From positions 23,610 through 87,609 of the forward strand of contig JADHXI010000001.1 of assembly GCA_016783065.1 (NCBI GenBank): a DNA stretch of 64,000 bases, read 5' to 3'. The stretch is from Desulfobacteraceae bacterium. GTDB taxonomy: Bacteria; Desulfobacterota; DSM-4660; Desulfatiglandales; Desulfatiglandaceae. Position 1 is the first letter of the stretch; every line of letters starts with the position of its first letter. The notes under the pieces are model-generated. The model worked only from the letters and a program-made list of their open reading frames with translations, was not told the DNA's origin and did not search any database. Position numbers and translations under genes: made by a program. Positions 28,506 to 63,437 of the stretch are shown piece after piece.

Positions 28506-28578
28506 AAATCTGACTTTTTACATGGGTCCATATTTAGCAACTCAAAACGTCACTTTCTCTGGAAAGAAAAATAGTCTT

Positions 28579-29571: not shown

Positions 29572-29579
29572 GAATATAT

Positions 29580-30551: not shown

Positions 30552-30578
30552 GATTTATCCCTCCTGTCGGCTGATTGT

Positions 30579-31550: not shown

Positions 31551-31739
31551 TGGCAATTCCTCCTTACAGGATGTTTCCCACATTATAAATTAAGTGCTAT
31601 TTGACCCAGGTTGGCAGCGCATGTATTATCAAATCTTATAGAAGGTCGGGTTTGAAAAAGCAAGCAGATAACCAGAGAAATTCAGCGAACCCAAGGCCTT
31701 GAATCGAATACTGGACTGACCCAGTTTCTGCGTAGGATC

Positions 31740-40955: not shown

Positions 40956-41034
40956 TGTCTCTGCCTCCTCACGGGTCTTGAGCCTCACCCACTCCTTTTC
41001 TTCTGCAACGGGTCATTTTGTAGGTTCTCAATAA

Positions 41035-42405: not shown

Positions 42406-42463
42406 AACGAACCTCCTAAGACATAAATTCACATATATCCGGCTGAATCATAAATTTCGTTTC

Positions 42464-44351: not shown

Positions 44352-44451
44352 AACGTTTCTCTCATTTTATTTATTTATCATTTACCCAAAGCCAAAAAAA
44401 GCTGGGCCGGGGCCTGGCATCTCTCCCCGTCCCAGCTCAAGAAGCCTGGCT

Positions 44452-49168: not shown

Positions 49169-49194
49169 TTAATACCCCAGACAGGAGTAATGAC

Positions 49195-50166
49195 ATGGCT
49201 GAGATGATGTATCGGGAGGCTTTGAATCGGGCCCTTTTTGAAGAAATGAGAAAGGACCCGTTGGTTTTTGTTTTGGGAGAAAATATCGGCGAGCGTGGAG
49301 GATCTTATAAGGTCACGGAAGGGTTGATAAAAGAATTCGGTGCCGAGCGTGTCATAGACACGCCCCTGGCCGAAGCAACATTTACCGGCGCAGCGGTGGG
49401 GGCGGCTCTTGCCGGTACACGACCTGTTGTGGATATCCTGTTTGTGGATTTTACCACAGTTCCCATGGACGCAATCGTCAATCAGGCCGCCAAATATGAA
49501 TTCATGTCCGGTGGTCAGGGACAGGTCCCTATGGTTTTGAGGACACAGGGAGGGGCAGGAAATAGTCTTGCAGCGCAACACTCACAGAGCCTTGAAGCCC
49601 TGTTTTACCATATTCCGGGTCTAAAGCTCGTCATGCCCTCTTCACCCTACGATGCCTATGGCCTTCTGGTATCGGCCATACGCGACGACCAACCAACCAT
49701 ATTCATAGAGCACAAGTTGTTATACATGACCAAGGGGGAAGTCCCGGAAGAAGAATATGTGGTCCCCCTTGGAGAGGCTGACGTCAAAAAAGAGGGCTCA
49801 GATGTCACTCTTTTGACCTATTCCTATATGACATTGAAATGCCTTGAAGCTGCTGAGCTTCTGGAGAAAGAAGGCATCAGTGTCGAGGTGGTCGATTTGA
49901 GAACACTGAAACCCCTGGATGAAGAAACCATATTGGCTTCGGCAAGGAAGACGGGCCGGGTTATTATCGTCCACGAGGCGTGCAAGAGGGGCGGGATCGG
50001 TGGAGACATTGCCGCCATGATCATGGAGGAGGCATACGACGATTTGGACGGTCCGGTCATGCGCGTTTGCGGTTTGGACACGCCCATCCCATACAACCTT
50101 GAACTGGAAAAGGTGTGTATTCCCACGACAGAGGATATTGTAGAAGCCATTATCAAGATTACTTGA
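49195..50166 (+). CDS. E1 beta subunit (set 3)
   Basis: AGGAG SD. HSQSLEALFYHIPGLKLVMPSSP. LEAAELLEKEGISVEVVDLRTLKPLD. Confidence 0.9.
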   Translation: MAEMMYREALNRALFEEMRKDPLVFVLGENIGERGGSYKVTEGLIKEFGAERVIDTPLAEATFTGAAVGAALAGTRPVVDILFVDFTTVPMDAIVNQAAKYEFMSGGQGQVPMVLRTQGGAGNSLAAQHSQSLEALFYHIPGLKLVMPSSPYDAYGLLVSAIRDDQPTIFIEHKLLYMTKGEVPEEEYVVPLGEADVKKEGSDVTLLTYSYMTLKCLEAAELLEKEGISVEVVDLRTLKPLDEETILASARKTGRVIIVHEACKRGGIGGDIAAMIMEEAYDDLDGPVMRVCGLDTPIPYNLELEKVCIPTTEDIVEAIIKIT

Positions 50167-50224
50167 TCCGGCGGGTTCTAATATTTTTGACCGCAATTTA
50201 TCTTTTTGAGGATGAGTGAATATT

Positions 50225-51592
50225 ATGTCAACGAAGATCATAATGCCCCAGGCCGGGCAGGATATAACGGAAGGAAGGGTTGTAAAGTGGCTAAAGGCTG
50301 AAGGAGACACCGTCAAACAGGGTGAACCGATCTGCGAAGTGGAGACGGAAAAAGTCGTCTTCGAGGTTGAATCACCGGCAGACGGGGTCCTCTTGAAGAT
50401 CATTGTTCCTGACGGGAAAAAGACCGAGATATTTGCGACCATCGGCGTGGTGGGCGAGCCGGGGGAAGCCATTGATATGACCGAATTTCTCTCAGATGAT
50501 AGAAAGGAAGAAAAAGAGGTCGATGTCGCTGATATTCGGAAGCGTCTGACTCAAAAAGAAACGGGTGATACTGCAAAAATAAAGGTGTCAGGAAGGGCAA
50601 GAAAGCTGGCGGAAAAGAAAGGGGTTGACCTTACCACAATTGAGGGCACCGGGCCCGGTGGCCGCATCGTGGAAAAAGATGTCGAGCGAGCGGCAGCTGA
50701 GGCGGCGGACGTCAAGATAAGAGTGTCTCCCGTGGCCAGAAAGATGGCTGAGGAAAATGGTATCGACCTTGGCATCATGAAAGGCTCAGGACCTGGCGGC
50801 CGTATCATCAAGGAAGATGTACAGAGAGCCATAGAAGAAAAAGCATCTGAAAAAAAGATAACGGAGAAACCCGGCGCAGCAGCACTAAAAGAGGTGAAAG
50901 AGGTTGTGCCCATCAGAGGTGTCAGGCAGGTGATCTTTGAACGGATGCACCAGAGCCTGCAACAGTCCGCACAACTTACCGTCACCATGGAGGTTGATGC
51001 GGCGGAGCTGGTCCGTTTCCGGAGAGTGCTGGGCGAGGGCCCTGAAAATGCGGGCATACGCATTTCCTACAATGCGATCCTGGTGAAGATCTTGGCCCGG
51101 GTCCTCGAGGAGCACCCTCACCTCAATAGCAGTGTTATTGGCGACGAGATCTGGATCTGGGAATCGGTGAATCTTGGGGTGGCCGTGGATGTTGAAGATG
51201 GCTTGGTGGTTCCGGTTGTTCGTGATGCGAACAAAAAAGATCTGATCGCCATACAAGGAGAAATGGACGAACTGGCTGAAAAGGCGAAATCTAAAAAATT
51301 GATTCCGGATGATCTAAGAGGAGGGACCTTTACGCTGACCAATATGGGTTTTCTGGATATCGAGGCCTTTACTCCCATCCTTAACCCGCCCGAGACCGGA
51401 ATCCTGGGCGTGGGAAAGATCGTGGAGAAGCCGGTGGTGGAGAACGGAGATATCAAGGTAGGCCAGAGGATGACGCTGAGCCTGACCTTTGATCACCGCA
51501 TTGTTGATGGAGCGGATGGAGGCCGTTTCCTCAAGAGGGTAAAGGCATATATCGAAGAACCCTATCTTCTTCTGGCAGCCGGAAATAAATAG
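50225..51592 (+). CDS. dihydrolipoamide acyltransferase E2 (set 3) with two E3-binding domains
   Basis: Lipoyl VETEKVVFEV. Two PSBD copies (VSGRARKLAEKKGVDL..GPGGRI and VSPVARKMAEENGIDL..GPGGRI). Catalytic TFDHRIVDGA. ATG 50225 is preferred over GTG 50216 on SD spacing. Confidence 0.9.
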   Translation: MSTKIIMPQAGQDITEGRVVKWLKAEGDTVKQGEPICEVETEKVVFEVESPADGVLLKIIVPDGKKTEIFATIGVVGEPGEAIDMTEFLSDDRKEEKEVDVADIRKRLTQKETGDTAKIKVSGRARKLAEKKGVDLTTIEGTGPGGRIVEKDVERAAAEAADVKIRVSPVARKMAEENGIDLGIMKGSGPGGRIIKEDVQRAIEEKASEKKITEKPGAAALKEVKEVVPIRGVRQVIFERMHQSLQQSAQLTVTMEVDAAELVRFRRVLGEGPENAGIRISYNAILVKILARVLEEHPHLNSSVIGDEIWIWESVNLGVAVDVEDGLVVPVVRDANKKDLIAIQGEMDELAEKAKSKKLIPDDLRGGTFTLTNMGFLDIEAFTPILNPPETGILGVGKIVEKPVVENGDIKVGQRMTLSLTFDHRIVDGADGGRFLKRVKAYIEEPYLLLAAGNK

Positions 51593-52059: not shown

Positions 52060-53676
52060 TTATCCCTTCTCGTCCTTGGAAGCTGGCTGCTCATCACCTT
52101 CATTTGTAACTCCCATTATATTTATGCCCGCCAACCCGAGTTCCCGCAGAAGCGAATCCACGAGTGGCGCCTGGGCGCGGTAACGAAGCGCACTGTCGAA
52201 AACGCGGTCAGACATGGCGATGCCCTCTTTGGTCCGGTCGTTCCCCCAGAGGCCGTCGGCCTGCACTATTTTGATGCTGTCGATTTTCTCGAGCGGTTTG
52301 CCGCTTTCATGTATGATTTCCGCCAGATGATCGATGAGATAGTGGCGAATTTCGGCCGTGATCTGCTCGGGCGACAACAAGTTCTTAGCTTCGTTGAGGG
52401 CTCTCGTGCCAGCCGCCTCCACGCGGAATCGCACTTCGTTCCCTGCCGCCTTGATTTTCTCGGCCTCCGCTTGGTCCACAGCCGCAGCCTTTTCAGCTTC
52501 GGCCATGATCTTGAGGGCCAAGGCCTGCCTCTCGGCCTCGCGCGCCGCCTCGATCAGTTCCACTGCCTTCCGGCGTCCGGCGGCCTCCTTTTCCCGTGCT
52601 GTGAGCACGCGTTCCTCGGCGGTAACCAGATCGGCCCGCGCGGCCTCTGCTTCAGCCTTGGCCTCCGACTGGGCCTTAGAGCCGATGGAAACCTCGACAT
52701 CTCGAGCATGCTCGGCAAGCCGTATCATCTTCTCTTTCTCAATTTCGCGTTCACGGAGTGCCCGCTCTCGGGCAAGCCGCTCCTCCTCGATATCCCGTTC
52801 GGAAAGGATTTTGGCGATCTCAACCTTCTGACGCGCCACAATTTCGGCCTGGTCGGCCCCCTGTGACTGCTCTGCACGGCGCAGGGTGATCTCGGCCGTC
52901 TGCTCTGCCTTGCGGATTTCGATCTCCAATTGCTGCTCCAGGCGAGCGGACTGTTCTTCGAGTTCGAGGGCGAGGTTGAGCTTCTCGGTTTCCAGGTTCT
53001 TATTGCGGATTTGAATCCGTGTGTCTTGCTCGATATCGTTGCGCTTCTTTTTCCGGCTTTCGATCTTCTCGGTAAGATGCGTCAGACCCTCGGCGTCGAA
53101 GGCGTTGGAAGGATTGAAATAACTCATCTCCGTCTGGTCGAGTTGGGTTAGCGAGGCTGCCTCAAGCTCGAGACCGTTTCGGGACAGATCCTCCGCCACG
53201 GCCTCGCGCACCCTGCCTATGAAATTCTTCCGTTGCGCGTGCAGTTCCTCCATTGTCATCTCAGCAGCAATGGAGCGGATGGCATCGATGAACTTGCCCT
53301 CCACGATCTCGTTAAGCGCATCCGGGCGCATGGTGCGAGAGCCAAGCGTGCTGGCAGCGATTGATATGGCATTTAGATCGGGAGCCACATGAACATAGAA
53401 TTCTACCACTATGTCCATACGCATCCGATCCCTGGTGATGACCGATTGCTCATTCTGGCGCTGAACCTCCAGGCGTAAGGTCTTCATGTTGACCTCTATC
53501 ACCTCATGCAACACAGGGATGACCACGGCGCCTCTGTTTTTGACGATTTTTTCACCTCCGAAGCCTGTCCGGACGAAGGCGATCTCCTTGCTGGCGCGCT
53601 TGTAAAAAATAAAGAAGAGCACCACTAGTGCGATGGCCACAAGGATCAAAACAATGATGGTAGCTGACACAGACAT
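52060..53676 (-). CDS. flotillin / SPFH (band 7) domain protein
   Basis: GAGAGGTGG SD. N-terminal TM helix, SPFH core, and a long Ala/Glu-rich coiled-coil (EAEKAAAVDQAEAEKIKAAG). Confidence 0.8.
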   Translation of the reverse strand: MSVSATIIVLILVAIALVVLFFIFYKRASKEIAFVRTGFGGEKIVKNRGAVVIPVLHEVIEVNMKTLRLEVQRQNEQSVITRDRMRMDIVVEFYVHVAPDLNAISIAASTLGSRTMRPDALNEIVEGKFIDAIRSIAAEMTMEELHAQRKNFIGRVREAVAEDLSRNGLELEAASLTQLDQTEMSYFNPSNAFDAEGLTHLTEKIESRKKKRNDIEQDTRIQIRNKNLETEKLNLALELEEQSARLEQQLEIEIRKAEQTAEITLRRAEQSQGADQAEIVARQKVEIAKILSERDIEEERLARERALREREIEKEKMIRLAEHARDVEVSIGSKAQSEAKAEAEAARADLVTAEERVLTAREKEAAGRRKAVELIEAAREAERQALALKIMAEAEKAAAVDQAEAEKIKAAGNEVRFRVEAAGTRALNEAKNLLSPEQITAEIRHYLIDHLAEIIHESGKPLEKIDSIKIVQADGLWGNDRTKEGIAMSDRVFDSALRYRAQAPLVDSLLRELGLAGINIMGVTNEGDEQPASKDEKG

Positions 53677-53721: not shown

Positions 53722-54159
53722 TCAACCCCCTAGATGCTTCTTTAGTCCGTCGAAGCCAGCCTGGAAAACATCACGGCTAATGAAGCTTGCCATTTCTTGC
53801 TCTTTGCCAGGTGTGGTCTCAAACTCCGCATTCCATTCGCCAAAGGTTCGATTGCCGTCGGTCACAGGGGTAAACTTGAGCTTAGCCACGAAGTTGTTCA
53901 GATCAAGCCCTGATTCGATGATCGCATAGGAGAAGCTGTAGTCGTAGTCCGACAGCGATAGCAGTTGCTCGCGTATGCGTGTATCGTCAGCGATATGGTA
54001 GCTGCGAATGCACCCTATTGCGTCGCTGGGCCTGCCGCCTTCGATCGTGCTGCGGGCAACCAGGGGGTGCCAGCTCGGCATGTCGTTGAAGTCCCTCACA
54101 ACCGCCCATACTTCGTCGGCTTTTGCTTCTATCACCGAACTAACGAAAACCTTGCTCAT
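53722..54159 (-). CDS. SRPBCC (START/Bet v1-like) ligand-binding protein
   Basis: GAGGAG SD. 145 aa. VWAVVRDFNDMPSWHP is a typical SRPBCC N-terminal block. Confidence 0.7.
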   Translation of the reverse strand: MSKVFVSSVIEAKADEVWAVVRDFNDMPSWHPLVARSTIEGGRPSDAIGCIRSYHIADDTRIREQLLSLSDYDYSFSYAIIESGLDLNNFVAKLKFTPVTDGNRTFGEWNAEFETTPGKEQEMASFISRDVFQAGFDGLKKHLGG

Positions 54160-54338: not shown

Positions 54339-56528
54339 TCAAGTTTCGCGCATGATTTCGTTAAAGTTACTGACCAGGGCATCAGCGAACGTAGGGTCGT
54401 TGATGTGGTAGGGCAGCCGGATCAGCCGGCGCTTGTCCGTTTGTTTGACCGTGCGCTCGATGGCGTCGAATAGGGCAGCGTTGGCCTCAGGATCGTGAAA
54501 CGGTTTGCCCGGCAGGTCCTGGAGGTCAAGTCCCCCTTCCGGTATGAGGAACCGCACAGGCCCGTTCATCTGGTTCAGCTTGCGTCCGACCCATTCTCCG
54601 ATTCGAGCGCTCTCCTCCGCCGTGGTGCGGAACGCCGTCACTTGCGGATTGTGCCGATAGAGGTTTCTTGACCGGTATTTCTCCGGCACCGTATCCGGCG
54701 CTCCGAAGTTCACAATCTCTAACCCACCGCAGGACCCCACATAAGGGATGCCCGTACGGATCATGGCGCCCAATCGGTCCTCGCCGGCGCTCAAGATACC
54801 CCCCATGTGCAGGTCGCAGATCTCCGAAGTGGTCACGTCGATGACGCCCGCCATAATGCCGGATTCCACCAGTTTCTCCATGGAACGGCCGCCCGTGCCG
54901 GTGGCGTGGAAGACCAAGCAGTCATACTTGTGCTCCAGCTTGCGGGTAACCAACTCTACGCATGGCGTGGTCACGCCGAACATGGTCAGGCCGATGGCGG
55001 GCTTGTGGTGCTCGCCCTTGGGTTTTTTGCCCATCATCATGCCCGCTAGGGCGTTGGCGGCGTTGGCCAGCACCCGCTCCGATATCCGGTTTATCCCGGA
55101 GATGTCGGTCACGGAATACAACATGCAGATGTCGGACGCCCCCACGTAGGGCGCGACGTTGCCGCTAGCCACCGTAGAAACCATGATTTTGGGAATCCCC
55201 ACGTTCAGCCCTTGCATGCCCGGTGTGGTTAGGGCCGTGCCTCCGGACCCGCCGAGTCCGATCACCCCGCCGACATCCGTTTGTGAGGCTATATAATGCG
55301 TGAACGCATCGGCCATGGCGGTCACCGCGCTGCCCCGTTCCCCTGTGAACACCGCATCGGCTCCGTCCGGATGGTACTTGGCCACTTCCTGCGGTCGCAC
55401 GTCGGCTGGCGAGGGCTGGCCAGAGGTGCTGAGGTCCACGGTCACCGCACGCACTCCCTGGGAGGCGATGATATTGCGGACGAAGGATAGTTCCCGATTT
55501 TTGGTGTCGAAGGTGCCGGCCACATAGGCCGCGCTGTGAGAGAGCGAGGCCTCAGGGACAGCTGGCGGTGAAACTTCATCGACCGCGCCTCTTAGCCCGC
55601 CTTCGGCCATCAAGTTGGGCACCCGCCCCCATCGCGTAATCTGTTTGGCGATGCCGGCCCGGCTCTGTTCAGACTGGCGCCGTTCAATCAGGGGATTACC
55701 ATAGGACCAACGGTTGGGAAACTTGGGTACGCTCATGTATTTCGCATCGGTGGCGACAACCTCGCTCGTTTCGCGGCGGGGTGGCATCCGCGCGGCATCC
55801 GGCGCGGACTCCTCTTCATCAGATACCGCTTCCTCCGCCTTGGCGCTGATACCGAGCAGGCGTTGCTGCAGGGAACGATCGACTGCCAGGGTTGCGGAGT
55901 CCAGTTCCGTTTCAATTCGACCGTTGACCATGACCGCCAAGCGCTTGGCGACCTTTGTGGCCACACCCAGATTCTGTTCTACAAGAAGGACTGCCAAATC
56001 CTCTTCCTCTGCCAGGCGGAGGAGCAGAGTTTCCATTTGTTCCACGATTAGGGGAGCGAGCCCCTCCGTAGGCTCGTCCATGATCAGAAGTGTTGGATTC
56101 GCCACCAACGCCCGGCCGATGGTCAGCATCTGTTGCTCGCCGCCGGAAATCTGGTTGCCACCGTGGGTCCGACGTTTGGAAAGGGGCGGGAAGACCTCGT
56201 ATATGAGCTCGATGCTCCAGGGACCACCGCCCTTTGCGGCCAGCCTGAGGTGCTCATTAACCGTAAGTGACGGCCAGACACGCCGCCCCTGGGGCACGTA
56301 GCCTACACCGAGATCCGCGATCCGGTAAGGGTGCAGGCCAAGGATCTCCTGTCCATCCAGGCGCACGCTCCCCTCTGCAGTGCGCAACAGACCCATTATG
56401 GCGTTGCAGAGGGTCGTTTTGCCCATGCCATTGCGCCCGACAATACCCAGGACACCATGACGCTTCAAGGTGAAGGACACCCCTTGCAACACATGGATAT
56501 GACCGTAGAAGACGTGAAGGTCCTCCAC
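54339..56528 (-). CDS. fusion protein: LivF-type ABC ATPase domain + Tm-1-like (UPF0261) ATP-binding domain
   Basis: Single 729-aa frame with a GTG start. The N-terminal ~235 aa carry Walker [17 protein letters not shown] and [12 protein letters not shown] ~90-aa linker follows. The C-terminal ~400 aa begin [20 protein letters not shown], with GLGGSGGT and FHATGTGG, as in UPF0261 proteins. Confidence 0.75.
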
Positions 56529-56559
56529 GACTAGAATCTCGTCCGCATTATATTCTGAC

Positions 56560-57342
56560 CTAGCGATGACTTTCCCCCAGATAGATAGCCTGAACGTCGG
56601 GGTCTTCCTGTATCTCGGAGGGTGAGCCCTCCTTGAACACCCTACCGTTTTCCATGATCGTGACGTTTTCGACGACTTTTAGAGCGACATCGAGGTCGTG
56701 CTCGATGATTATAAAGCCGATATGAGACGGAAGTCCATTCAGCATAGACATGAGATCGGTACGTTCCGCTGCGGACAATCCGGCTGCAGGCTCGTCCAGA
56801 AGGAGTAACCGCGGCGCCCCCGCCAGGGCCATGCCGATCTCCAATTGTCGTTGCTGGCCGTGCGACAGCGCGGAAACGATCAGATTCAACACCTCCTCCA
56901 GATGCACGAACCGGGCCATGTTCTCTGTCTGCTCTATAGCGGGGTCGTCGGCTCCGGGCCGGCGGAACGAGAACCGACCGCGGCTCACGCCGCGCTGGGC
57001 CAGATAAAGATTGTCCCGAACCGACAGATTATTGAACAACAGGGAATTCTGATAAGTTCGTCGCAGACCTCGCCGGATCCGCTCGTGGGGAGGAAGCTCT
57101 GTGATATCCTCCCCGAAAAACGTGATTCGGCCGCTGGTGGGCGGAAAGTCGCCGGTGATGGCGTTAAAGAGGGTCGTCTTGCCCGCGCCGTTGGCCCCGA
57201 GCACGGCACGCCGCTCACCGGCCTGGACGTTCATGGACACGTCATTTAGCGCCACCAGTGCACCGAAGGTCCGTCCTACGCCCCGGAGCTCCAGGGCGTA
57301 GGGGGATCCGACAAAGCTTTGGGCCTTTCCACTATCCTTCAC
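56560..57342 (-). CDS. LivG-type ABC transporter ATP-binding protein
   Basis: Walker [10 protein letters not shown] and Walker [15 protein letters not shown] start. Confidence 0.85.
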
Positions 57343-57369: not shown

Positions 57370-58620
57370 CTAATTACAGGGAGGATTGTTGCGACCAACC
57401 GGTCCGAGGGCCAGGAACTCTTTGCGATCCATTCCCAGAGTCTGGTTCACCTGCGGAACGACCTTGACCACCTTGCTGTAGAGAACACCATCTGGGCGTT
57501 CCGCGACTTCCGTGATGAACATATCGGCTATGGCCTGTCGATTCTCGTCAAGCCTTACTACGCCCGAAGGGGTTTGCAGCTCGATTTTGGACAGGGTCTC
57601 CCGGAACGCCTTATGGTTGTTGGACAGGTCGCCGTTCACCTTATCAAGGGCGGTCAGACAGGCCACTGTGCTCACATAGTAGCCCCACGCGAAAACGGAA
57701 GGAGACGGAAAACCCTTCGGAAAGGCGGCCTTATATTCGGCAACGAACTTCTTCCAACTGGGGGTGTCCAGGTTGTCCGCCATGGCGCTCCCCGACGGGG
57801 TGCCGATCATGTACGTCTTGCGTCGGCCCTTGGAGCTCAGAACGCTCTGGTCGATAGTAACAGTGCCGCCGACCATAGGCTTGTCGCCGCCCGCTTGTTC
57901 ATACTGGCTCAGGAAGTTAACCGCATCCGAGCCGCCCAGGGCCACGAAGATGGCGTCGATGTCATCCGGAATGGAGGCCACGATCGTGCTGTAGTCCTTG
58001 TTGCCGACCGGCACCCAGAAGCGCTTGACCACCTTACCCCCGGCCTTACAGTAGCCCAGCAGGAATCCCATGACATTGGTGTATGCAAAAGAGTAATCCT
58101 CTGCGACGGTGACGATCTTCTTGTAGCCCTTGACCTGGACGACATACTCGCCGACCCCAGCCATGAACTGCACCCCGTCGCCGGTGAACCGGAAGAAGTT
58201 AGGGGCCGGGTTTCGCAGGGTGGTGTCCTGGGCCGCAGAGATGCCGTTGAAAAACGTCACCTGAGGCTGGGTATGGGCATAATCTTTCACGGCAATGCCT
58301 TCCGAGCCTGAGAGCGGGCCAATGACGATATCGACTTTATCCTGCTCCACCAGCTTGCGCGCCGCCCGGGTGGCACTGTCGGGGGTGGCGTCCGTCGACA
58401 TGGTGTAGAGCTTGATCTTCTTCCCGGCCACGGTGTAGTTCCACTGCTGCAGGGCAAGCTTGACACCGCGCATGCCATCCTGGCCAAGCACGGCGAAAGG
58501 GCCTTCAAGCGTCGCCATTGCACCGATTTTGATGACACCGTCGGCCTGGGATGTCACGGGCAGACACAGACTCACCGCCAAAGCTGCACAGATAATCAAA
58601 ACTCCTAACGCTTTCTTCAT
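57370..58620 (-). CDS. ABC substrate-binding protein (LivJ/K-like type 1 periplasmic binding fold)
   Basis: Signal peptide MKKALGVLIICAALAVSLCLPVTSQA. IKIGAMATLEGPFAVLG is typical of Peripla_BP_6. Confidence 0.8.
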   Translation of the reverse strand: MKKALGVLIICAALAVSLCLPVTSQADGVIKIGAMATLEGPFAVLGQDGMRGVKLALQQWNYTVAGKKIKLYTMSTDATPDSATRAARKLVEQDKVDIVIGPLSGSEGIAVKDYAHTQPQVTFFNGISAAQDTTLRNPAPNFFRFTGDGVQFMAGVGEYVVQVKGYKKIVTVAEDYSFAYTNVMGFLLGYCKAGGKVVKRFWVPVGNKDYSTIVASIPDDIDAIFVALGGSDAVNFLSQYEQAGGDKPMVGGTVTIDQSVLSSKGRRKTYMIGTPSGSAMADNLDTPSWKKFVAEYKAAFPKGFPSPSVFAWGYYVSTVACLTALDKVNGDLSNNHKAFRETLSKIELQTPSGVVRLDENRQAIADMFITEVAERPDGVLYSKVVKVVPQVNQTLGMDRKEFLALGPVGRNNPPCN

Positions 58621-58792: not shown

Positions 58793-59794
58793 TTAATGAG
58801 TCGCAGGTGCGGTCCATTGCCTTAATTTCTGCCAGAGACCGAGAAGCCCGTCGGGTGAGAACAGCACAATGGCCAGGAACACCGCCCCGATCAGCAGGTT
58901 AAACCGTTCGCTGGCGATTAAGTCAATGGCGAAGTTCTCCAGCAGAGTGAACAAGACGGCGCCGATAAAGGCGCCCACCGGGTGGCCCAGACCGCCGATC
59001 ACCGCAATGACCAGGATGTCGATGGTGGGTCCGATACCGATAGAGCCCGGCGAGATGCGTCCGTTGAGCCAGATCATCAGTACGCCGCCAAACGAGGCGA
59101 TGAGGGCGGCGACGGTGTAAGCCAGAATTCGGTGGGCTCTCACGTTGAAGCCGAGAGCCTGCATGCGCCGATCGTTATCCCTGATCCCCTGCAGCGAGAG
59201 ACCGAAGGTGGACCGCCGAAGATAAACCACCACAAAGTAGGCGACGGCCACCACCGCCAGGCTAAGATAATAAAAGGGCACGGGATCTCGCCAATTCACC
59301 CCCCCGATGACCGGTGGTTTGAGGCCCGCGAATCCGTTCCAACCGTTTAGTATGTTGTAGTTTTGGCGGGCGAAATAATAAAAACCCACGGCGATGGCCA
59401 GCGTGATCATGATTGTGTAAATGCCCGTAGTTTGGACCGAAATCGCGCCGATCAGGGTGCCAAAGAGGGTGGCTATGACGATGGCCAGGATGACCGCCGC
59501 CAACCAAGGCCAGCCCAACCCCATGTTGAAGCTGTTGACCCCCAGCACGGCCACCGTGTACCCGGCGCAACCCGCCACACTGACCTGGGCCAGGGAAACC
59601 ATCCCTCCGTATCCGGCCAGGAAGGTCAGGCTCAGGGCGATCATGCCCAGGATCAGCGACTGGGCGCCGATTTGTACGGTCCAGAAGGGCGATGCGATCC
59701 AGGGATAGACCAGCAGGAACACAAAGACGAGTACGTGCCATAGCACGTCAGCCTGGCTTGTGCCACGTATCACCTGTGCGTTGCTTCCCCTCAT
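58793..59794 (-). CDS. LivM-type ABC permease
   Basis: Highly hydrophobic 333 aa. 1-nt TGATG overlap with the upstream permease. Confidence 0.8.
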   Translation of the reverse strand: MRGSNAQVIRGTSQADVLWHVLVFVFLLVYPWIASPFWTVQIGAQSLILGMIALSLTFLAGYGGMVSLAQVSVAGCAGYTVAVLGVNSFNMGLGWPWLAAVILAIVIATLFGTLIGAISVQTTGIYTIMITLAIAVGFYYFARQNYNILNGWNGFAGLKPPVIGGVNWRDPVPFYYLSLAVVAVAYFVVVYLRRSTFGLSLQGIRDNDRRMQALGFNVRAHRILAYTVAALIASFGGVLMIWLNGRISPGSIGIGPTIDILVIAVIGGLGHPVGAFIGAVLFTLLENFAIDLIASERFNLLIGAVFLAIVLFSPDGLLGLWQKLRQWTAPATH

Positions 59795-60654
59795 CAGGCG
59801 CGCCTCCCAAGGAGGCCTTGTGGCCGGAAGGCCAGGGTGAGCACCATGATAATGAAGGTGTACACAACCCCGTATGTGGGCGAGTAGGCTAGACCAAACT
59901 GCTCCGCAAGGCCGATGAGAAGCGCGCCCAGCGCCGCGCCACCCACGCTGCCCATGCCCCCGACGATGACCACGACCAAAGAGGCCAGCAAATATCTCAG
60001 GTCTTCGCCCGGCGCGATGGAAAGGGCGGATCCGCCCACCACCCCTGCAAAACCTGCGAGACCGGCACCAATGGTGAACACGATTGCAAAGACGCGGTGC
60101 ACGTTGACGCCTGTGGCGGCCAGCATGTCGCGATCGTCCACGCCTGCGCGGATCATCATCCCGACCCGTGTCTTGTCGAGAAATAACCAGAGCGCCAACC
60201 CGATCACAACGGCGATAAGGAGGATGAACAAGCGGTAAGTGGTATAGACTTTTATAATGGGAAGGCGGGTGACTCCGTAAAGCGCGTCCGGTATTTCGAA
60301 CTGGTAAGTCACACCTCCCCAGACGGCTAGCATAACATCGGCCAGTATGATCGAAATACCGATAGTCACCAAGGTCTGGCGCAGATCCTGACCTTCCATG
60401 AAGCGAAAAATGCAGACCTGCAATAGCAACCCCAGAATTGCTATCGCAACGAACCCGCCGGCGGCGCCCAGAACCCAGGAGCCGGTGGCCTCCGCCACGT
60501 CGAAACCGACGTAAGCCCCAAGCAGGAAAAGCGAGCCGTGGGCCAAGTTGACGTTGCGCATGACCCCAAACACGAGGGTGAACCCGCTGGCCACCAGGAA
60601 ATAGAGGGCGGCAAGCGTAAGTCCGTTCAAGATGGTCATAATGAAGAGCTTCAT
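59794..60654 (-). CDS. LivH-type ABC permease
   Basis: MKLFIMTILNGLTLAALYFLVASGFTLVFGVMRNVNLAHG is the canonical LivH N-terminus. Confidence 0.85.
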   Translation of the reverse strand: MKLFIMTILNGLTLAALYFLVASGFTLVFGVMRNVNLAHGSLFLLGAYVGFDVAEATGSWVLGAAGGFVAIAILGLLLQVCIFRFMEGQDLRQTLVTIGISIILADVMLAVWGGVTYQFEIPDALYGVTRLPIIKVYTTYRLFILLIAVVIGLALWLFLDKTRVGMMIRAGVDDRDMLAATGVNVHRVFAIVFTIGAGLAGFAGVVGGSALSIAPGEDLRYLLASLVVVIVGGMGSVGGAALGALLIGLAEQFGLAYSPTYGVVYTFIIMVLTLAFRPQGLLGRRA

Positions 60655-60689: not shown

Positions 60690-60967
60690 TCAGTCGATCA
60701 TACGTAGGACTTCCAAGGCGTTGTCCGAGTCAGTGATGAGTATGTGAATGACCCCGGTACGCAATGCGCCAAGAATCGCTTTTGACTTTCCCTCTTTACT
60801 AACCGCAGCAATGACCGTAAGGTTCAGAGCAGTCGTTGAAGTTCTTGACGTGAAATGCCCAATTTTCGGGCTACTTCGGCCTGGATCTTCCTTTCTACAG
60901 AATAGAGGGACGCTGGGTGGGTGAGGAAGTCGAAAAAATTAAGTTTTTCACTTGAGGTTTGAGGCAT
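60690..60967 (-). pseudogene. internally deleted SorC/DeoR-type sugar-binding regulator remnant
   Basis: The minus strand reads MPQTSSEKLNFFD...AEVARKLGISRQELQRLL* (HTH fragment). A different frame then reads ..LTVIAAVSKEGKSKAILGALRTGVIHILITDSDNALEVLRMID* (typical SorC C-terminus). About 250 aa of the middle are missing. Confidence 0.5.
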
Positions 60968-61155: not shown

Positions 61156-61624
61156 AACAAATCCTCATGGCCAAAGCTGGGCGACACCCTTTTCCTGAAT
61201 GATCTTACTTAAGGCTCTCCCGAATTAGGCCTTGACAGGGGTCCTACAACTATTTATTAGAAATGAATAGCTACCATACACTATATGAGCATTTGCTTTC
61301 AATGCATGGAGTGACCCTGCCCATTGCTAGTCGAAACCTGACGGCCACTTTCTTGCGGTGCGGTGGGCTACATGTTTGGACATCATTTAGATAATGAATA
61401 TCTAAAGGCCTTGGATGTGTTGCCCCTGGCCGACGAAATAACCTAGGGTAGCACGGCTGCCATCCCACGCCTAAATTTCGGCATTTCGCCTTGGAATTTA
61501 TCGATATATGTATTAAAGAATAGGATGTTATAGGGCTCCTGGAAGAATGTAAATCAAAATGATTTGCGGGGACTTATGGTGCTTTGACCTAACGGGCACA
61601 GAAAGCAAGTGGAGGAGGGAAAAA

Positions 61625-62491
61625 ATGGCCAAAAAATACGGTCGCGACGAAGTGAACGCTCGGCTTAGGGAAACGCTGAAGGCCGGAAAATCGATCATCC
61701 TCGGTGGAGCAGGGGACGGCTTCACAGCCAAGCTGGAGGAAAAAGGAGGCCTGGACATAATCGGGATATACAACTCCGGACGATTCAGGCACTTTGGCGC
61801 TGGTTCCCTGTCCGGTTTGATGCCGTTGGGACGTAACCAGGATATGGTTATGGACTACGCCGCCGAGGTCCTTTCCATGGTGAAGGAGACCCCGGTGATC
61901 GCCGGATTTTGCGCGCAGGATACCAGGACGCTTTGGGAGCATTGGTTCAATACGCTCGCATCGATGGGTGTCTCAGGCTTCATGAACTTCCCCACCGTGG
62001 GTCTCATCGATGCAGACTCCCGCTACCGGAATAACCTGGAGGAGTCGGGACTCGGCTTCGATAGTGAGGCAGAAGTGCTAAGGATCGCCCATGACTTAGG
62101 ATTCTTCACTGTTGGCTATTGCTTTACTCCTGACGAGGCCAAGATGATCGCCAAAGCCGGAGTTGATATCATTGGGTGTCACGTTGGCCTGACCTCGGGA
62201 GGCCTGATTGGTGCGGGAACGGTCATGACACTGGATGAGAGTGTCAAGGTGACCAACCAACTGATCGCCGCGGCAAAGGAAGTACGTCCGGCCGGGGACT
62301 TCATCGCCATGACCCATGGAGGACCCATGGAGGACCCCGAGAGCACCGCCTATGTCATGGAGCGCACCGAAGCCGTCGGCTACCTGGGGGCCTCCAGCAT
62401 CGAGCGCACCCCCGTGGAGCCCGCAGTTATCAAAGTCTGCCAGGAATTCAAGAATATACCGGTCAACATACCAGACTGGTTGAAGCTGTAA
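61625..62491 (+). CDS. PEP-hydrolase-like TIM-barrel protein (PF09370-type, Tm-1 C-terminal-domain homolog), paralog 1
   Basis: GGAGGAGGG SD before ATG 61625. GGAGDGFTAKLEEKGGLDIIGIYNSGRFRHFGAGSLSGLMPLG, FMNFPTVGLID and HGGPMEDPE match my recollection of this family. Confidence 0.75.
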   Translation: MAKKYGRDEVNARLRETLKAGKSIILGGAGDGFTAKLEEKGGLDIIGIYNSGRFRHFGAGSLSGLMPLGRNQDMVMDYAAEVLSMVKETPVIAGFCAQDTRTLWEHWFNTLASMGVSGFMNFPTVGLIDADSRYRNNLEESGLGFDSEAEVLRIAHDLGFFTVGYCFTPDEAKMIAKAGVDIIGCHVGLTSGGLIGAGTVMTLDESVKVTNQLIAAAKEVRPAGDFIAMTHGGPMEDPESTAYVMERTEAVGYLGASSIERTPVEPAVIKVCQEFKNIPVNIPDWLKL

Positions 62492-62591
62492 GTTCTATCT
62501 GGATTTCAAGGAGGGGCCTTCATCCGAGGCCTGGATGAATCGCAAATGTCAGGCCTCGGGAGGTACCAGTCCAATTTATTAGGGGGATCTC

Positions 62592-63437
62592 ATGGCTAAA
62601 AAATATAGCAGGATAGAGGTGTTGGACCGTCTTCACCGACAACTCGAGGCGAAAAAGCCTTTGCTTATGTTTGGCGCGGGTATCGGTTTGACCGCCAAGT
62701 GCGCCGAATTGGGCGGGGCTGACCTGATCGCAGTCTATTCCACTGCCATGTATCGTATGATGGGACAACACACCCTAATGGCCTTCTTACCGTACTCCAA
62801 CGCCAATGAACACGTAGCCAAGATGGCCTGTGAGATCCTCCCGGCGGTCAAAGAAACTCCCTGTATCGTCGGCATAGGCGCCCATGACCCCAGCCTGAAC
62901 CAGGAAAGGTTCATGGATGAAATGATGGCGCTGGGCTTTTCCGGCGTAACCAACGAGCCCTTTGCGGGCATTTACGGTCCTGATTTCGCGGCCCAATTGG
63001 AATCTGCCGGGCTGGGCTTTTCCAAGGAAGCGGAAATGATTGCGCTGGCTCACAGTAAGGGAATATTTACCGTTGGTTGGGCCTTTAACCCGGAAGAGGC
63101 CCGCAAAATGGCCGAGGCCGGGGCGGATGTGGTTGGTGCCCTGGTGGGCGTAACGGCTGGGGGGCTGAGTGGCCCTAAGGATTCATTGACGTTAGAGAAA
63201 GCTACAGAGGCGGTTCAGGCCATGTACCAGGCAGCCAGGGAGGTGAATCCCGACGTCATCGTCCTCACCCACGGGGGGCCATTCAAGGATCCGGAAACGG
63301 CCGAATATTCCATTTTACATTCCGGCGCAGTTGGCTACGCCGCTGGATCCAGCGGGGAGCGACTGCCCGTTGAAAACGCGATCGTTGAAGTTACGAAATC
63401 TTACAAGAATATGAAACTGGACATGGGGTCCAAATGA
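62592..63437 (+). CDS. PEP-hydrolase-like TIM-barrel protein, paralog 2
   Basis: MAKKYSRIEVLDRLHRQL.., FGAGIGLTAKCAELGGADLIAVYSTAMYRMMG, THGGPFKDPE. Collinear with paralog 1. Confidence 0.75.
   Translation: MAKKYSRIEVLDRLHRQLEAKKPLLMFGAGIGLTAKCAELGGADLIAVYSTAMYRMMGQHTLMAFLPYSNANEHVAKMACEILPAVKETPCIVGIGAHDPSLNQERFMDEMMALGFSGVTNEPFAGIYGPDFAAQLESAGLGFSKEAEMIALAHSKGIFTVGWAFNPEEARKMAEAGADVVGALVGVTAGGLSGPKDSLTLEKATEAVQAMYQAAREVNPDVIVLTHGGPFKDPETAEYSILHSGAVGYAAGSSGERLPVENAIVEVTKSYKNMKLDMGSK

What the first reader, a model, noticed from the sequence alone, without database searches (positions are those of the whole stretch)
54339..56528. ABC importer ATPase (LivF-type) fused in-frame to a Tm-1-like UPF0261 ATP-binding domain
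The livF position of a livH-livM-SBP-livG-livF operon is occupied by a single 729-aa ORF. Residues ~1-235 are a complete NBD ([27 protein letters not shown]). A ~90-aa acidic/Pro-rich linker follows (..[33 protein letters not shown]..). Then come ~400 aa that read as a full UPF0261/Tm-1 N-domain-like protein ([20 protein letters not shown].., [16 protein letters not shown]). Bacterial UPF0261 proteins have no established function. The only studied relative I know is tomato Tm-1, an ATP-binding inhibitor of tobamovirus replication. I know of no characterised transporter with this accessory domain welded to its NBD. The fusion implies that uptake is coupled either to sensing or to chemical processing of the substrate.
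Basis: partly seen in the sequence, partly recalled or inferred. Interest (0 to 1): 0.8.

Follow-up and report, generated by a model that had tools for sequence, protein, structure and literature searches.

The report
ABC importer ATPase tethered to kinase-family domain
One of the two motor subunits of a nutrient-uptake pump carries, on a long floppy tether, a full copy of a poorly understood ATP-binding domain. This domain is the bacterial relative of the tomato antiviral protein Tm-1, and one member of its family was shown in 2025 to be a small-molecule kinase. The arrangement recurs in many bacteria inside one conserved gene cluster, which offers a practical route to finding out what the Tm-1 family normally does.

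Summary
Window 54339-56528, on the minus strand, is one 729-aa ORF. It holds a LivF/UrtE-type ABC ATPase (res 1-226), a disordered ~100-aa linker (227-328) and a complete UPF0261 N+C module (334-726).

It is not an assembly artefact. The identical protein occurs in two independent assemblies and in a Desulfobacteraceae MAG. At least 120 protein clusters at 58-91% identity, from several proteobacterial classes and Desulfobacterota, share the architecture.

The fusion sits in a conserved cassette: livH-livM-SBP-livG-[NBD~UPF0261], one to three PF09370 TIM-barrel genes (the other half of plant Tm-1), a flotillin and an SRPBCC protein. Actinomycetota and one alphaproteobacterium have the same genes unfused.

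The statement that bacterial UPF0261 has no function is outdated. MarK (JBC 2025) is an ATP-dependent aromatic kinase. Its ATP-site and core substrate-site residues are invariant here, but its specificity residues differ.

Best reading (about 0.45): an uptake-and-phosphorylate module, with the kinase tethered at the importer's exit and the product passed to PF09370. The substrate is unknown.

I found no paper on this fusion. I rate it a new variant of a known kind, with moderate to high interest.

The parts
59794..60654 (-). LivH/UrtB-like permease (286 aa)
   Evidence: Pfam BPD_transp_2, E 1.1e-32. The best NCBIfam model is UrtB at 170 bits, below its cutoff of 250. Conserved at 44-82% identity in all related loci.
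58793..59794 (-). LivM/UrtC-like permease (333 aa)
   Evidence: Pfam BPD_transp_2, E 2.9e-35. The best NCBIfam model is UrtC at 118.6 bits, below cutoff.
57370..58620 (-). Periplasmic substrate-binding protein (416 aa, with a signal peptide), which marks the system as an importer
   Evidence: Pfam Peripla_BP_6, E 3.2e-56. It is far below the UrtA and LIV-BP equivalog cutoffs. The nearest PDB sequence is 4zpj (E 2e-39), then 4ey3 and 4evq (E 4e-25 and 9e-20). Urea-binding proteins score about 1e-11 and LIV-BP about 5e-6.
56560..57342 (-). LivG/UrtD-like ATPase (260 aa), the second and unextended NBD
   Evidence: Pfam ABC_tran plus BCA_ABC_TP_C. UrtD scores 212 bits and LivG 181 bits, both below cutoff.
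54339..56528 (-). The fusion ORF (729 aa plus stop): NBD, linker and UPF0261
55851..56528 (-). NBD module, res 1-226. It has Walker [11 protein letters not shown]-loop YVPQGRR, signature SGGEQQ and Walker [11 protein letters not shown].
   Evidence: Pfam ABC_tran. These motifs are invariant in 16 homologues. Foldseek's best NBD hit is 1ji0, with target-normalised TM 0.83. pLDDT is 72-91.
55545..55850 (-). Disordered linker, res 227-328
   Evidence: The AF2 model gives pLDDT below 50 and no secondary structure across 227-328. In 109 close homologues the linker is 92-125 aa and rich in A, P, E, R and S.
55692..55712 (-). Conserved short linear motif RWSYGNP (res 273-279) inside the linker
   Evidence: The regex hits are dominated by (R/L/F)(W/F)-S-x-(G/A/S)-N-P variants (about 70 of 109 from the listed counts). 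A looser W[SG]x[GSA] core is found in 80 of 109 close fusion homologues. Only an 'RW' core survives in the more distant L006-L008.
54342..55544 (-). UPF0261 module, res 329-729 (N and C subdomains). It has the ATP-site triad D341-T342-K343 and the conserved G518, H541 and H626.
   Evidence: Pfam PF06792 plus PF23189. NF002673 scores above cutoff. By sequence, Tm-1 (3wry) gives E 2e-90 and MarK (9mpy) E 2e-55. Residue mapping to MarK is and invariance. Foldseek's top hits are Tm-1 and MarK.
53722..54159 (-). SRPBCC / Polyketide_cyc2 small ligand-binding protein (145 aa), a conserved member of the cassette
   Evidence: Pfam E 9.4e-24. An ortholog lies downstream of the fusion in L003, L004, L005, L007, L008, L086, L087 and L088.
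52060..53676 (-). Membrane-anchored flotillin (Band_7 plus Flot, 538 aa), a conserved member of the cassette in the fused loci
   Evidence: Pfam. Present in all 9 fused loci that have enough flank. Absent from the 5 unfused loci within the DNA held (about 8 kb per side where the contig allows).
61559..62491 (+). PF09370 'PEP hydrolase-like' TIM barrel, paralogue 1. The likely start is Met23 at 61625, giving 288 aa.
   Evidence: Pfam E 1.7e-91. Called as 288 aa in L001. It is 41% identical to paralogue 2.
62592..63437 (+). PF09370 'PEP hydrolase-like' TIM barrel, paralogue 2 (281 aa)
   Evidence: Pfam E 3.3e-96. PDB 2p10 gives E 4e-61. The AF2 model has pLDDT 85.7 and pTM 0.89. After 2p10, Foldseek finds phosphate- or 2-oxoacid-binding TIM barrels: Pdx1, TIM, methylisocitrate lyase, PEP mutase and class II aldolases.
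60693..60967 (-). Remnant of a SorC-family regulator gene. Only the first ~42 and last ~42 codons survive, in different frames.
   Evidence: tblastn with the intact 320-aa SorC gene that precedes livH in L003 matches 60842-60967 (55% identity) and 60693-60818 (81% identity).

Best explanation
The locus encodes a binding-protein-dependent ABC importer of the HAAT (Liv/Urt) family. Its LivF-position ATPase carries an active UPF0261 small-molecule kinase on a ~100-residue disordered tether.

Proposed sequence of events:
1. The periplasmic SBP delivers an unidentified solute to LivH/LivM.
2. The LivG and LivF NBDs hydrolyse ATP to translocate it.
3. The tethered UPF0261 domain uses a further ATP to phosphorylate the solute as it emerges. 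This traps and activates it.
4. The phosphorylated product passes to the one to three PF09370 TIM-barrel proteins encoded alongside, which are the obligate partner of UPF0261 in the Tm-1 family.
5. The co-conserved flotillin and SRPBCC proteins probably organise or assist this membrane-proximal assembly.

Shown: the architecture, its conservation, the cassette, the unfused variants, the conserved catalytic-site residues and the disordered tether.

Inferred: kinase activity of this subfamily, coupling to transport, the order of steps, and the roles of PF09370, flotillin and SRPBCC.
For: 1. The three-domain ORF is real and widespread. NBD fusions extend down to 35% identity in the UPF0261 part (P0256, P0240, P0177).
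2. The synteny livH-livM-SBP-livG-[NBD~UPF0261]-PF09370-flotillin-SRPBCC is constant. It holds in Desulfobacterales, Azospirillum, Burkholderiales, Arenicellales, Reyranella and others.
3. Rosetta-stone evidence: the same importer genes lie next to a free-standing UPF0261 plus PF09370 in L009, L010, L011, L012 and L014. The link is therefore at the pathway level and is not a one-off accident.
4. A UPF0261 protein is a proven ATP->ADP kinase (MarK, PMC12624787). Its ATP-site residues D14/T15/K16 correspond to D341/T342/K343 here. Its substrate-site residues G195, H219 and H304 correspond to G518, H541 and H626. All six are invariant in 16 fusion homologues. The domain carries Lys natively at the position where MarK needed the E16K change for a ~1600-fold rate gain.
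5. The NBD motifs are intact and invariant.
6. The linker is predicted to be disordered. That fits a tether better than a rigid allosteric joint.
7. PF09370 models as a TIM barrel. Its structural neighbours after 2p10 bind phosphorylated sugars or 2-oxo acids, which is consistent with it acting on a phospho-product.
8. The adjacent regulators fit a small-molecule or phospho-metabolite inducer. L003 has a SorC 'Sugar-bind' regulator, and this family typically senses sugar phosphates (established knowledge). L005 and L088 have sigma54 activators whose sensor domain is itself PF09370.
Against: - No catalysis has been shown for the Tm-1-type subfamily (NF002673). This domain is closer to that subfamily (Tm-1 E 2e-90) than to MarK (E 2e-55). 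Tm-1 itself acts by binding.
- MarK works without PF09370.
- MarK's specificity residues T196, F283, I285 and H348 are V519, I605, N607 and Q670 here, so the substrate class cannot be transferred.
- The MarK ATP and substrate sites are ~25 A apart and the phosphotransfer mechanism is unresolved.
- Unfused variants show that covalent coupling is dispensable.
- L086 has no PF09370 gene within 10 kb.
- Only one UPF0261 domain is present per transporter, whereas MarK crystallises as a homodimer.
- Clues to the substrate conflict. The SBP's nearest PDB relatives after 4zpj include aromatic-acid binders (ligand identity recalled from memory). The window, L003 and L009 neighbourhoods point to sugars or polyols. 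Alphaproteobacterial loci carry amidohydrolase, FAA-hydrolase and alpha/beta-hydrolase genes.
Confidence: 0.45

Rival explanations
1. Regulatory or sensor domain. On this view UPF0261, with PF09370, does not transform the imported solute. It binds ATP or a cytoplasmic metabolite and gates the NBD ATPase. That would be trans-inhibition or energy sensing of the MalK, MetN, ModC or OpuA kind. Alternatively it relays substrate status to transcription.
For: - Every well-studied accessory domain on an ABC importer NBD is regulatory (established knowledge: MalK, MetN, ModC, OpuAA).
- PF09370 is used as the N-terminal sensor domain of sigma54 activators placed directly beside this operon in L005 and L088. 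It was named the 'TIM-barrel signal transduction' domain (PMC5028733).
- Tm-1 functions by ATP-bridged binding, not by catalysis.
Against: - The 92-125-aa linker is predicted to be disordered. That makes a poor allosteric connection.
- Only one of the two different NBDs carries the domain, unlike the symmetric regulatory-domain dimers of MalK and MetN.
- The domain is 400 aa and keeps every mapped catalytic-site residue invariant.
- In several lineages it is a separate protein.
Confidence: 0.25
2. Same pathway but no functional coupling. On this view two adjacent operon genes, livF and a UPF0261 enzyme gene, fused. The fusion fixes stoichiometry and co-expression but has no mechanistic effect on transport. 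The enzyme would work equally well when free.
For: - L012 has livF ending in a stop codon, with UPF0261 starting about 6 codons later in the same frame.
- L010 has the two genes overlapping in different frames.
- L011 has another gene inserted between them.
- A rough NJ tree places free forms (L009, L010, P0126) immediately next to the main fused clade.
Against: - The linker is not simple read-through of a short spacer. It is 92-125 aa, is kept in frame in 109 homologues and carries a conserved (R/L)WSx(G/A)NP motif.
- The fused state persists across several classes and down to 35% identity.
- A flotillin gene accompanies all 9 fused loci and none of the 5 unfused ones. This suggests a membrane-organised assembly specific to the fused form. 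The sample is small and phylogenetically confounded.
Confidence: 0.2
3. Artefact: a frameshift, a mis-assembly or a read-through pseudogene that joins two genes.
For: None found. The only oddity is the short N-terminus and the lack of a canonical start upstream of GTG 56528.
Against: - The identical protein occurs in two independent assemblies and in an NCBI MAG.
- At least 120 clusters share the same architecture.
- All domain motifs are intact.
Confidence: 0.01

Closest known systems
LivF / UrtE ATPases of HAAT-family (TC 3.A.1.4-type) ABC importers
   Same: Residues 1-226 have the same fold and motifs. The operon also has two BPD_transp_2 permeases, a Peripla_BP_6 SBP and a LivG/UrtD partner.
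   Different: It scores below the equivalog cutoffs of both UrtE (215.8 against 285.8) and LivF (147.6 against 441). It also carries a ~500-aa C-terminal extension, which canonical LivF and UrtE lack.
MarK (Saro_1862, PDB 9MPY), the UPF0261 multiple-aromatic kinase of Novosphingobium aromaticivorans
   Same: It has the same two-subdomain fold (Foldseek E ~1e-31; sequence E 2e-55). The ATP-site DTK triad and the residues G195, H219 and H304 are conserved.
   Different: Identity is only about 31%. MarK is a free-standing homodimer in an acvCDEF carboxylase operon with no PF09370 or ABC partner. Its pocket residues T196, F283, I285 and H348 are not conserved here.
Tomato Tm-1 / plant Tm-1-like proteins (UPF0261 fused to PF09370)
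   Same: This is the closest solved relative of the C-terminal module (E 2e-90, ~40% identity). Both Tm-1 halves are encoded in this locus.
   Different: In plants UPF0261 is fused to the PF09370 TIM barrel and acts as a viral-replicase inhibitor. Here PF09370 is encoded separately, in two copies, and UPF0261 is fused to a transporter ATPase.
Regulatory C-terminal domains of importer NBDs: MalK TOBE/OB, MetN C2/NIL, ModC TOBE, OpuAA/ProV CBS
   Same: These are also extra domains appended C-terminally to an ABC importer ATPase.
   Different: From established knowledge, those domains are small (<=150 aa), joined rigidly, present on both NBD copies and bind regulators. Here a 400-aa enzyme-family module sits on a disordered tether on only one of two unlike NBDs.
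Uptake coupled to phosphorylation: PTS group translocation, and the metabolic-trapping pairs PnuC/NadR and ECF or Pnu vitamin transporters with their kinases
   Same: This is a functional analogy. The solute would be phosphorylated on arrival, which makes uptake effectively irreversible (own knowledge, not tested here).
   Different: There is no homology. Here the transporter is a primary ABC pump and the putative kinase is covalently attached to its motor. I am not aware of a characterised ABC importer built this way.
PhnK/PhnL ABC ATPases bound to the C-P lyase core
   Same: ABC NBD modules physically associated with a metabolic enzyme complex. They appear among the Foldseek NBD hits 7z15 and 7z18.
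   Different: PhnK and PhnL are not part of a translocating importer. The association is non-covalent and the enzymes are unrelated.

Membership tests
ABC transporter nucleotide-binding domain (PF00005), importer type | Walker A, Q-loop, ABC signature, Walker B with catalytic Glu, and D-loop | tested here: met
   [32 protein letters not shown] and EGLAP are present. All are invariant in 16 homologues.
ABC transporter nucleotide-binding domain (PF00005), importer type | Encoded with cognate permeases and a periplasmic binding protein | tested here: met
   Two BPD_transp_2 genes, one Peripla_BP_6 gene with a signal peptide and a second NBD lie in one minus-strand operon.
LivF (NF008626) or UrtE (TIGR03410) equivalog | Score above NCBIfam's curated cutoff | tested here: not met
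   UrtE scores 215.8 bits against a cutoff of 285.8. LivF scores 147.6 bits against 441. The SBP, the permeases and LivG are likewise below all Urt and Liv cutoffs.
UPF0261 (PF06792 plus PF23189; NCBIfam NF002673) | Both subdomains matched end to end above the gathering or curated cutoffs | tested here: met
   PF06792 scores 201.8 bits and PF23189 296.5 bits, both against a cutoff of 27. NF002673 scores 628.8 bits against a cutoff of 520.
MarK-type aromatic kinase | ATP-site D-T-K triad (MarK D14, T15 and K16 in the active variant) | tested here: met
   D341, T342 and K343 are invariant in the fusion family.
MarK-type aromatic kinase | Residues of the acetovanillone pocket | tested here: inconclusive
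   G195, H219 and H304 are conserved as G518, H541 and H626. T196, F283, I285 and H348 are V519, I605, N607 and Q670. The conserved residues also appear to match in the Tm-1 alignment (FHATG and HN motifs; positions not formally mapped), so they may be family-wide.
MarK-type aromatic kinase | Operon with the acvCDEF/hpeCBAD carboxylase and phosphatase genes | tested here: not met
   No such genes were found in the cassette, either in the window or in 9 related loci.
MarK-type aromatic kinase | ATP-dependent phosphorylation of a phenolic substrate | not testable with these tools
   This needs an enzyme assay.
Tm-1-like protein (UPF0261 plus PF09370 in one polypeptide) | Both domains in a single chain | tested here: not met
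   PF09370 is encoded by two separate, divergently transcribed genes at 61559-63437. Single-chain forms exist elsewhere: P0151, P0160 and P0250.
NBD regulatory-domain class (MalK, MetN, ModC type) | A compact domain directly abutting the NBD and present on both NBDs of the dimer | tested here: not met
   A ~100-aa linker with pLDDT below 50 separates the modules. LivG has only the short BCA_ABC_TP_C tail.
Known anti-phage defence systems (PADLOC-DB) | A match of UPF0261, PF09370, SRPBCC or flotillin to a defence-system model | tested here: not met
   Only generic ABC-ATPase models (mad3, mad8) hit the NBD. There were no hits for the other four proteins.

The most novel reading that the evidence does not exclude
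This may be an ABC-type 'group translocation' machine. A primary active importer would have its motor subunit carry a tethered kinase that phosphorylates the solute on arrival. It would work with the PF09370 TIM barrel inside a dedicated flotillin-scaffolded membrane assembly, and the conserved linker motif would be the docking site. On this reading the importer-linked reaction is the ancestral cellular function of the Tm-1 (UPF0261 plus PF09370) family, whose physiological role in bacteria, fungi and plants is still unknown.
Probability: 0.3. Interest if true: 0.85.

Novelty: new variant of a known kind. Interest (0 to 1): 0.62.

Why it matters
Three reasons.

1. **It would be a new design principle.** ABC importer accessory domains characterised so far are regulatory. 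An enzyme covalently tethered to the motor subunit would add primary transport fused to substrate activation.

2. **It opens a route to the function of the Tm-1 family.** UPF0261/PF09370 is widespread, with about 4,400 UPF0261 clusters at 50% identity. A UPF0261 mutant was attenuated in a Brucella signature-tagged mutagenesis screen (PMC2364660). The family was recruited by plants as the antiviral protein Tm-1. Yet its native substrate is unknown. Here the family is hard-wired to a binding-protein-dependent importer. The soluble SBP can therefore be screened for ligands by thermal shift, and this should identify the substrate of the kinase and TIM-barrel pair directly. Cultured hosts exist, for example Reyranella soli NBRC 108950 (L008).

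3. **It exposes an annotation error.** NCBI names these proteins 'ABC transporter permease', although they have no transmembrane segment. That label hides them from searches.

The conserved flotillin in a transporter operon also offers a genetically tractable case of a bacterial flotillin with a defined client.

Tried and rejected
- **Frameshift or assembly join: rejected.** The identical ORF occurs in two assemblies and one MAG, and there are at least 120 homologous clusters.
- **Conserved internal start at the MAEGG Met: not supported.** That linker stretch shows no column conservation among the 16 aligned homologues, and many of them are gapped there.
- **Rfam scan of the whole window at gathering thresholds.** It gave no hits, so no known riboswitch or leader was detected.
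- **Sigma-54 promoter pattern.** There were 6 one-mismatch hits against 4.5 expected, and none lay near the operon.
- **Sigma-70 and terminator scan of 51.5-61.8 kb.** Terminators were at background, and no promoter call was decisive.
- **PADLOC.** It gave no defence-system assignment.
- **Literature on the SBP's PDB relatives (4ZPJ, 4EY3, 4EVQ, 8TG1).** Nothing usable was in the library. The aromatic-acid ligands of 4EY3 and 4EVQ are therefore cited from memory only. PMC3223731 independently shows that this SBP family binds aromatic acids.
- **The genome-contig scan.** It mostly returned ordinary LivF genes and cannot be used for a census.
- **Substrate inference from neighbouring genes.** Context differs between lineages: sugars or polyols, amidohydrolase and FAA-hydrolase genes, or purine catabolism. 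I do not commit to a substrate.
- **Fusion in L010, L011 and L012.** The scan table reported residues 1-725 matched at these loci. In-frame translation shows stop codons or a frame change, so they are unfused.
- **The AF2 model.** It returns no inter-domain error map, so docking of the linker or the UPF0261 domain onto the NBD could not be assessed.
Full report
**1. The observation**

The ORF at 54339-56528 exists exactly as described, but on the minus strand. It is 729 aa and the first canonical start is GTG.

Pfam finds three domains:
- ABC_tran, res 14-154, E 2.6e-28.
- UPF0261 N-terminal domain, res 334-501, E 1.1e-59.
- UPF0261 C-terminal domain, res 509-726, E 1.1e-88.

NCBIfam places the C-terminal half in the UPF0261 equivalog NF002673, at 628.8 bits against a cutoff of 520. 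The N-terminal half is nearest to UrtE (215.8 bits) and LivF (147.6 bits), both below cutoff.

The upstream genes on the same strand are two BPD_transp_2 permeases, a Peripla_BP_6 binding protein with a signal peptide, and a LivG/UrtD-like ATPase. This is a binding-protein-dependent importer of the Liv/Urt (HAAT) family, but not an equivalog of either named system.

**2. Not an artefact**

- The identical 729-aa product is encoded on contigs of two independent ENA metagenome assemblies with the same neighbours.
- Its 90% cluster contains NCBI MBL7210808.1 from a Desulfobacteraceae MAG. That sequence is identical apart from a start three codons upstream, MLVVEDL.... The window therefore most likely comes from a Desulfobacteraceae bacterium.
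- A search of 5.8 billion proteins returns at least 120 clusters at 58-91% identity with the same three Pfam domains over 95-100% of the length. Where a source named them, they come from Desulfobacterales, Desulfobacula, Azospirillum, Dongiaceae and other Pseudomonadota.
- In a library clustered at 50% identity, UPF0261 has about 4,400 clusters at E<=1e-3 and 1,027 at E<=1e-30. NBD-UPF0261 fusions recur down to 35-40% identity in the UPF0261 part: P0177, P0240 and P0256.
- NCBI's product name, 'ABC transporter permease', is wrong. The protein has no hydrophobic segment; the maximum 19-residue Kyte-Doolittle mean is 1.23.

**3. Anatomy of the fusion**

- An AF2 model built on 16 homologues gives two confidently folded modules. 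They are joined by residues 227-328 at pLDDT below 50 with no secondary structure.
- Foldseek matches the C-terminal module to Tm-1 and MarK, and the N-terminal module to the LivF-like 1ji0 (target-normalised TM 0.83). Among the hits listed, none covers both modules (aligned columns never exceed about 420).
- In 109 close homologues the linker is 92-125 aa, rich in A, P, E, R and S, and always in frame. It carries a short conserved motif, (R/L)WSx(G/A)NP. A looser W[SG]x[GSA] core is found in 80 of 109. In the window it is RWSYGNP, res 273-279 (55692-55712). More distant fusions keep only an 'RW' core.
- The NBD motifs are all invariant.

**4.

Two paralogous PF09370 'PEP hydrolase-like' TIM-barrel genes are transcribed divergently from the operon, at 61559-62491 and 62592-63437. 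They are 41% identical to each other. PF09370 is the C-terminal half of plant Tm-1, and its co-evolution with UPF0261 has been described (PMC5028733). Downstream of the fusion lie an SRPBCC/Polyketide_cyc2 protein and a membrane-anchored flotillin.

These genes form a conserved cassette:

livH - livM - SBP - livG - [NBD~UPF0261] - PF09370 (1-3 copies, sometimes divergent) - flotillin - SRPBCC (1-2 copies)

The order of flotillin and SRPBCC varies between loci. The cassette is found in L003 (Desulfobacterales), L004 (Azospirillum), L005, L006 (Burkholderiales, a short contig), L007 (Arenicellales), L008 (Reyranella soli NBRC 108950), L086, L087 and L088.

Only the regulators and outer flanks differ:
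- L003 has an intact SorC-family regulator.
- L005 and L088 have sigma54 activators whose sensor domain is itself PF09370.
- The alphaproteobacterial loci have GntR/FCD with FAA-hydrolase, alpha/beta-hydrolase and amidohydrolase genes.
- In the window, the SorC gene is reduced to its first and last ~42 codons.

**5. Fused and unfused forms**

The same system occurs with separate genes:

| Locus | Organism | Arrangement |
|---|---|---|
| L012 | Actinomycetes | livF ends in a stop; UPF0261 starts about 6 codons later, followed by PF09370 |
| L011 | Actinomycetes | a PD40-repeat gene sits between livF and UPF0261 |
| L010 | Falsiroseomonas | the two ORFs overlap in different frames |
| L009 | Ilumatobacteraceae | SBP-livG-livF, then an oxidoreductase and a xylose-isomerase-like TIM gene, then UPF0261-PF09370 |
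| L014 | Acidimicrobiales | SBP-UPF0261-PF09370, divergent from livFGMH |

A rough NJ tree of UPF0261 domains shows:
- one main fused clade, with importer-linked free forms (L009, L010) as immediate neighbours;
- a second, deep fused group;
- other importer-linked free forms (L011, L012, L014) far away among ordinary free UPF0261 proteins.

The importer-UPF0261-PF09370 association is therefore older and broader than the fusion. The fusion is a stabilised state of that association.

Flotillin accompanies all nine fused loci that have enough flank. It accompanies none of the five unfused loci. The sample is small and not phylogenetically independent.

**6. What UPF0261 does**

MarK (Saro_1862) is an ATP-dependent, ADP-forming kinase of phenolic aromatics with a 1.57 A structure, 9MPY (PMC12624787).

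Mapping the HMMER alignment onto the window protein:

| MarK residue | Role | Residue here | Status |
|---|---|---|---|
| D14, T15, K16 | ATP site | D341, T342, K343 | invariant in the fusion family |
| G195, H219, H304 | substrate contacts | G518, H541, H626 | invariant in the fusion family |
| T196, F283, I285, H348 | specificity | V519, I605, N607, Q670 | differ |

The Lys of the triad is native here. MarK needed the E16K change at this position for a ~1600-fold rate gain.

The module is nearer to Tm-1 (E 2e-90) than to MarK (E 2e-55). It therefore belongs to the PF09370-partnered subfamily, for which no catalysis has yet been shown.

PF09370 paralogue 2 models confidently as a TIM barrel (pLDDT 85.7). 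After 2p10, its structural neighbours are barrels that bind phosphate or 2-oxo acids: Pdx1, triose-phosphate isomerase, methylisocitrate lyase, PEP mutase and class II aldolases. This is compatible with action on a phosphorylated product.

**7. Mechanism**

I favour, at about 0.45, an uptake-and-phosphorylate module. The SBP and LivHM/LivG/LivF import a solute. The tethered UPF0261 phosphorylates it at the cytoplasmic exit. PF09370 then processes the phospho-product. Flotillin and SRPBCC would organise or assist the assembly, and the linker motif is a candidate docking site.

Supporting points:
- conserved catalytic residues;
- the flexible tether;
- the Rosetta-stone pattern of fused and unfused forms;
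- the phosphate-type TIM-barrel partner;
- regulators of kinds that sense phospho-metabolites or contain PF09370 itself.

Rivals:
- A regulatory or sensor domain in the manner of MalK or MetN (0.25). The PF09370-sensor activators and all precedent for NBD accessory domains favour it. The disordered linker, the single-NBD asymmetry and the unfused forms count against it.
- A fusion with no mechanistic consequence beyond co-expression (0.2). The unfused forms favour it. The long, motif-bearing, deeply conserved linker and the flotillin correlation count against it.
- An artefact, which is excluded.

**8. Substrate**

The substrate is unresolved.
- The SBP is nearest to 4zpj (E 2e-39), then to 4ey3 and 4evq. 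From memory these are R. palustris aromatic-acid binders. PMC3223731 confirms that this SBP family binds benzoate-type aromatics. The SBP is far from urea and LIV binders.
- The window itself is a sugar and polyol island. It has five FGGY kinases, two CUT1-type sugar ABC systems, three acetoin-dehydrogenase-like E1/E2 sets, a transaldolase and an RpiR regulator.
- L003 carries a SorC sugar-phosphate-type regulator.
- L009 carries inositol-like oxidoreductase and isomerase genes.
- Alphaproteobacterial loci carry amidohydrolase-type genes.

**9. Comparison with known systems and novelty**

The protein is a member of the ABC NBD and UPF0261 families; those tests were met. It is not a LivF or UrtE equivalog, not a single-chain Tm-1-like protein, not demonstrably a MarK-type aromatic kinase, and not a MalK/MetN-type regulated NBD.

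Functionally the nearest analogies are PTS group translocation and kinase-driven trapping such as PnuC/NadR. There is no homology to either. PADLOC finds no defence-system signature.

The architecture is visible in databases. JGI labels it by its two domains. No paper in the searchable library describes it.

I class it as a new variant of a known kind. Its interest, about 0.6, comes mainly from two points. A tethered enzyme on an importer motor would be unusual for the field. The SBP also gives a direct experimental handle on the long-unknown native function of the Tm-1 family.

Noticed in passing
window 60693-60967 (-): Immediately upstream of livH lies the wreck of a SorC-family regulator gene. 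The first ~42 codons (60842-60967) and the last ~42 codons (60693-60818) survive in different frames, and about 236 internal codons are deleted. The intact 320-aa gene occupies this position in the Desulfobacterales locus L003 (4967-5929). The operon may therefore be deregulated in this organism.
   Followed up: yes
window 56526-56540 (-): The start site of the fusion is ambiguous. The reading frame stays open upstream and reads ..[15 protein letters not shown], which matches the conserved 'ILxVxDL' first strand of homologues. There is no ATG, GTG or TTG before GTG 56528. The N-terminus of NCBI MBL7210808.1 (MLVVEDL...) corresponds to a start at the ATT at 56537. Other gene callers start 20-26 codons further in. 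In the AF2 model, residues 1-12 have pLDDT below 50.
   Followed up: partly
window 54339-56528; homologues P0011, P0027, P0052, P0082, P0101, P0114, P0117, P0392: NCBI names these soluble two-module proteins 'ABC transporter permease'. The window protein has no hydrophobic segment (maximum 19-residue Kyte-Doolittle mean 1.23). This is a propagated misannotation.
   Followed up: yes
window 52060-53676 (-); L003, L004, L005, L007, L008, L086, L087, L088: A flotillin gene (Band_7 plus Flot, 528-566 aa) lies in all nine fused loci with enough flank. None lies within the DNA held (about 8 kb per side where the contig allows) in the five unfused loci (L009-L012, L014). A bacterial flotillin with a fixed transporter partner is unusual. 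The correlation is not corrected for phylogeny.
   Followed up: partly
L005 3422-5146; L088 3561-5312: Sigma54 enhancer-binding proteins whose N-terminal sensor domain is PF09370 sit directly beside the cassette. A short (206-221 aa) PF09370 gene lies on the opposite strand. This suggests that PF09370 binds the pathway's substrate or product.
   Followed up: partly
window 2427-3992, 5935-7500, 35170-36720, 37796-39358, 39393-40988: Five FGGY-family carbohydrate kinase genes lie in one 64-kb window. Alongside them are two CUT1-type sugar ABC systems (10739-17088 and 41290-45987), a transaldolase-like gene, an RpiR regulator, a xylose-isomerase-like TIM gene, and Fe- and Zn-type alcohol dehydrogenases. 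This is a dense sugar or polyol catabolic island.
   Followed up: partly
window 18110-21503, 27103-31583, 48170-51592: There are three separate sets of 2-oxoacid/acetoin-dehydrogenase-type E1-alpha, E1-beta and E2 genes, plus one E3-like Pyr_redox_2 gene at 31872-33245. That is an unusual multiplicity for one region. The second set includes a NAD-kinase-like gene at 28579-29571.
   Followed up: no
L011 8700-9629: In one Actinomycetes genome a PD40/TolB-like beta-propeller lipoprotein gene is inserted between livF and the free-standing UPF0261 gene.
   Followed up: no
L004 15322-16824; L086 14513-15991; L087 15259-16731: Alphaproteobacterial versions of the cassette end with a ~490-500-aa gene that fuses an SRPBCC (Polyketide_cyc2) domain to a Zn-dependent alcohol dehydrogenase or quinone oxidoreductase. 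These versions begin with FAA_hydrolase, alpha/beta-hydrolase and Amidohydro_1 genes.
   Followed up: no
proteins P0137, P0250, P0128: Other UPF0261 architectures appear among the closest representatives. They are UPF0261-Cupin_5 (626 aa), a reversed-order PF09370-UPF0261 (684 aa), and a protein with three UPF0261_C stretches (689 aa).
   Followed up: no
L001 372-2849 (beyond the window's right end): In the contig that extends past the window, the two PF09370 genes are followed by an FMN_red/Flavodoxin_2 gene, a GCV_H-like gene and an acetoacetate-decarboxylase-family gene. An FMN_red gene also follows the PF09370 genes in L003, and there a RuBisCO-like protein comes next.
   Followed up: no
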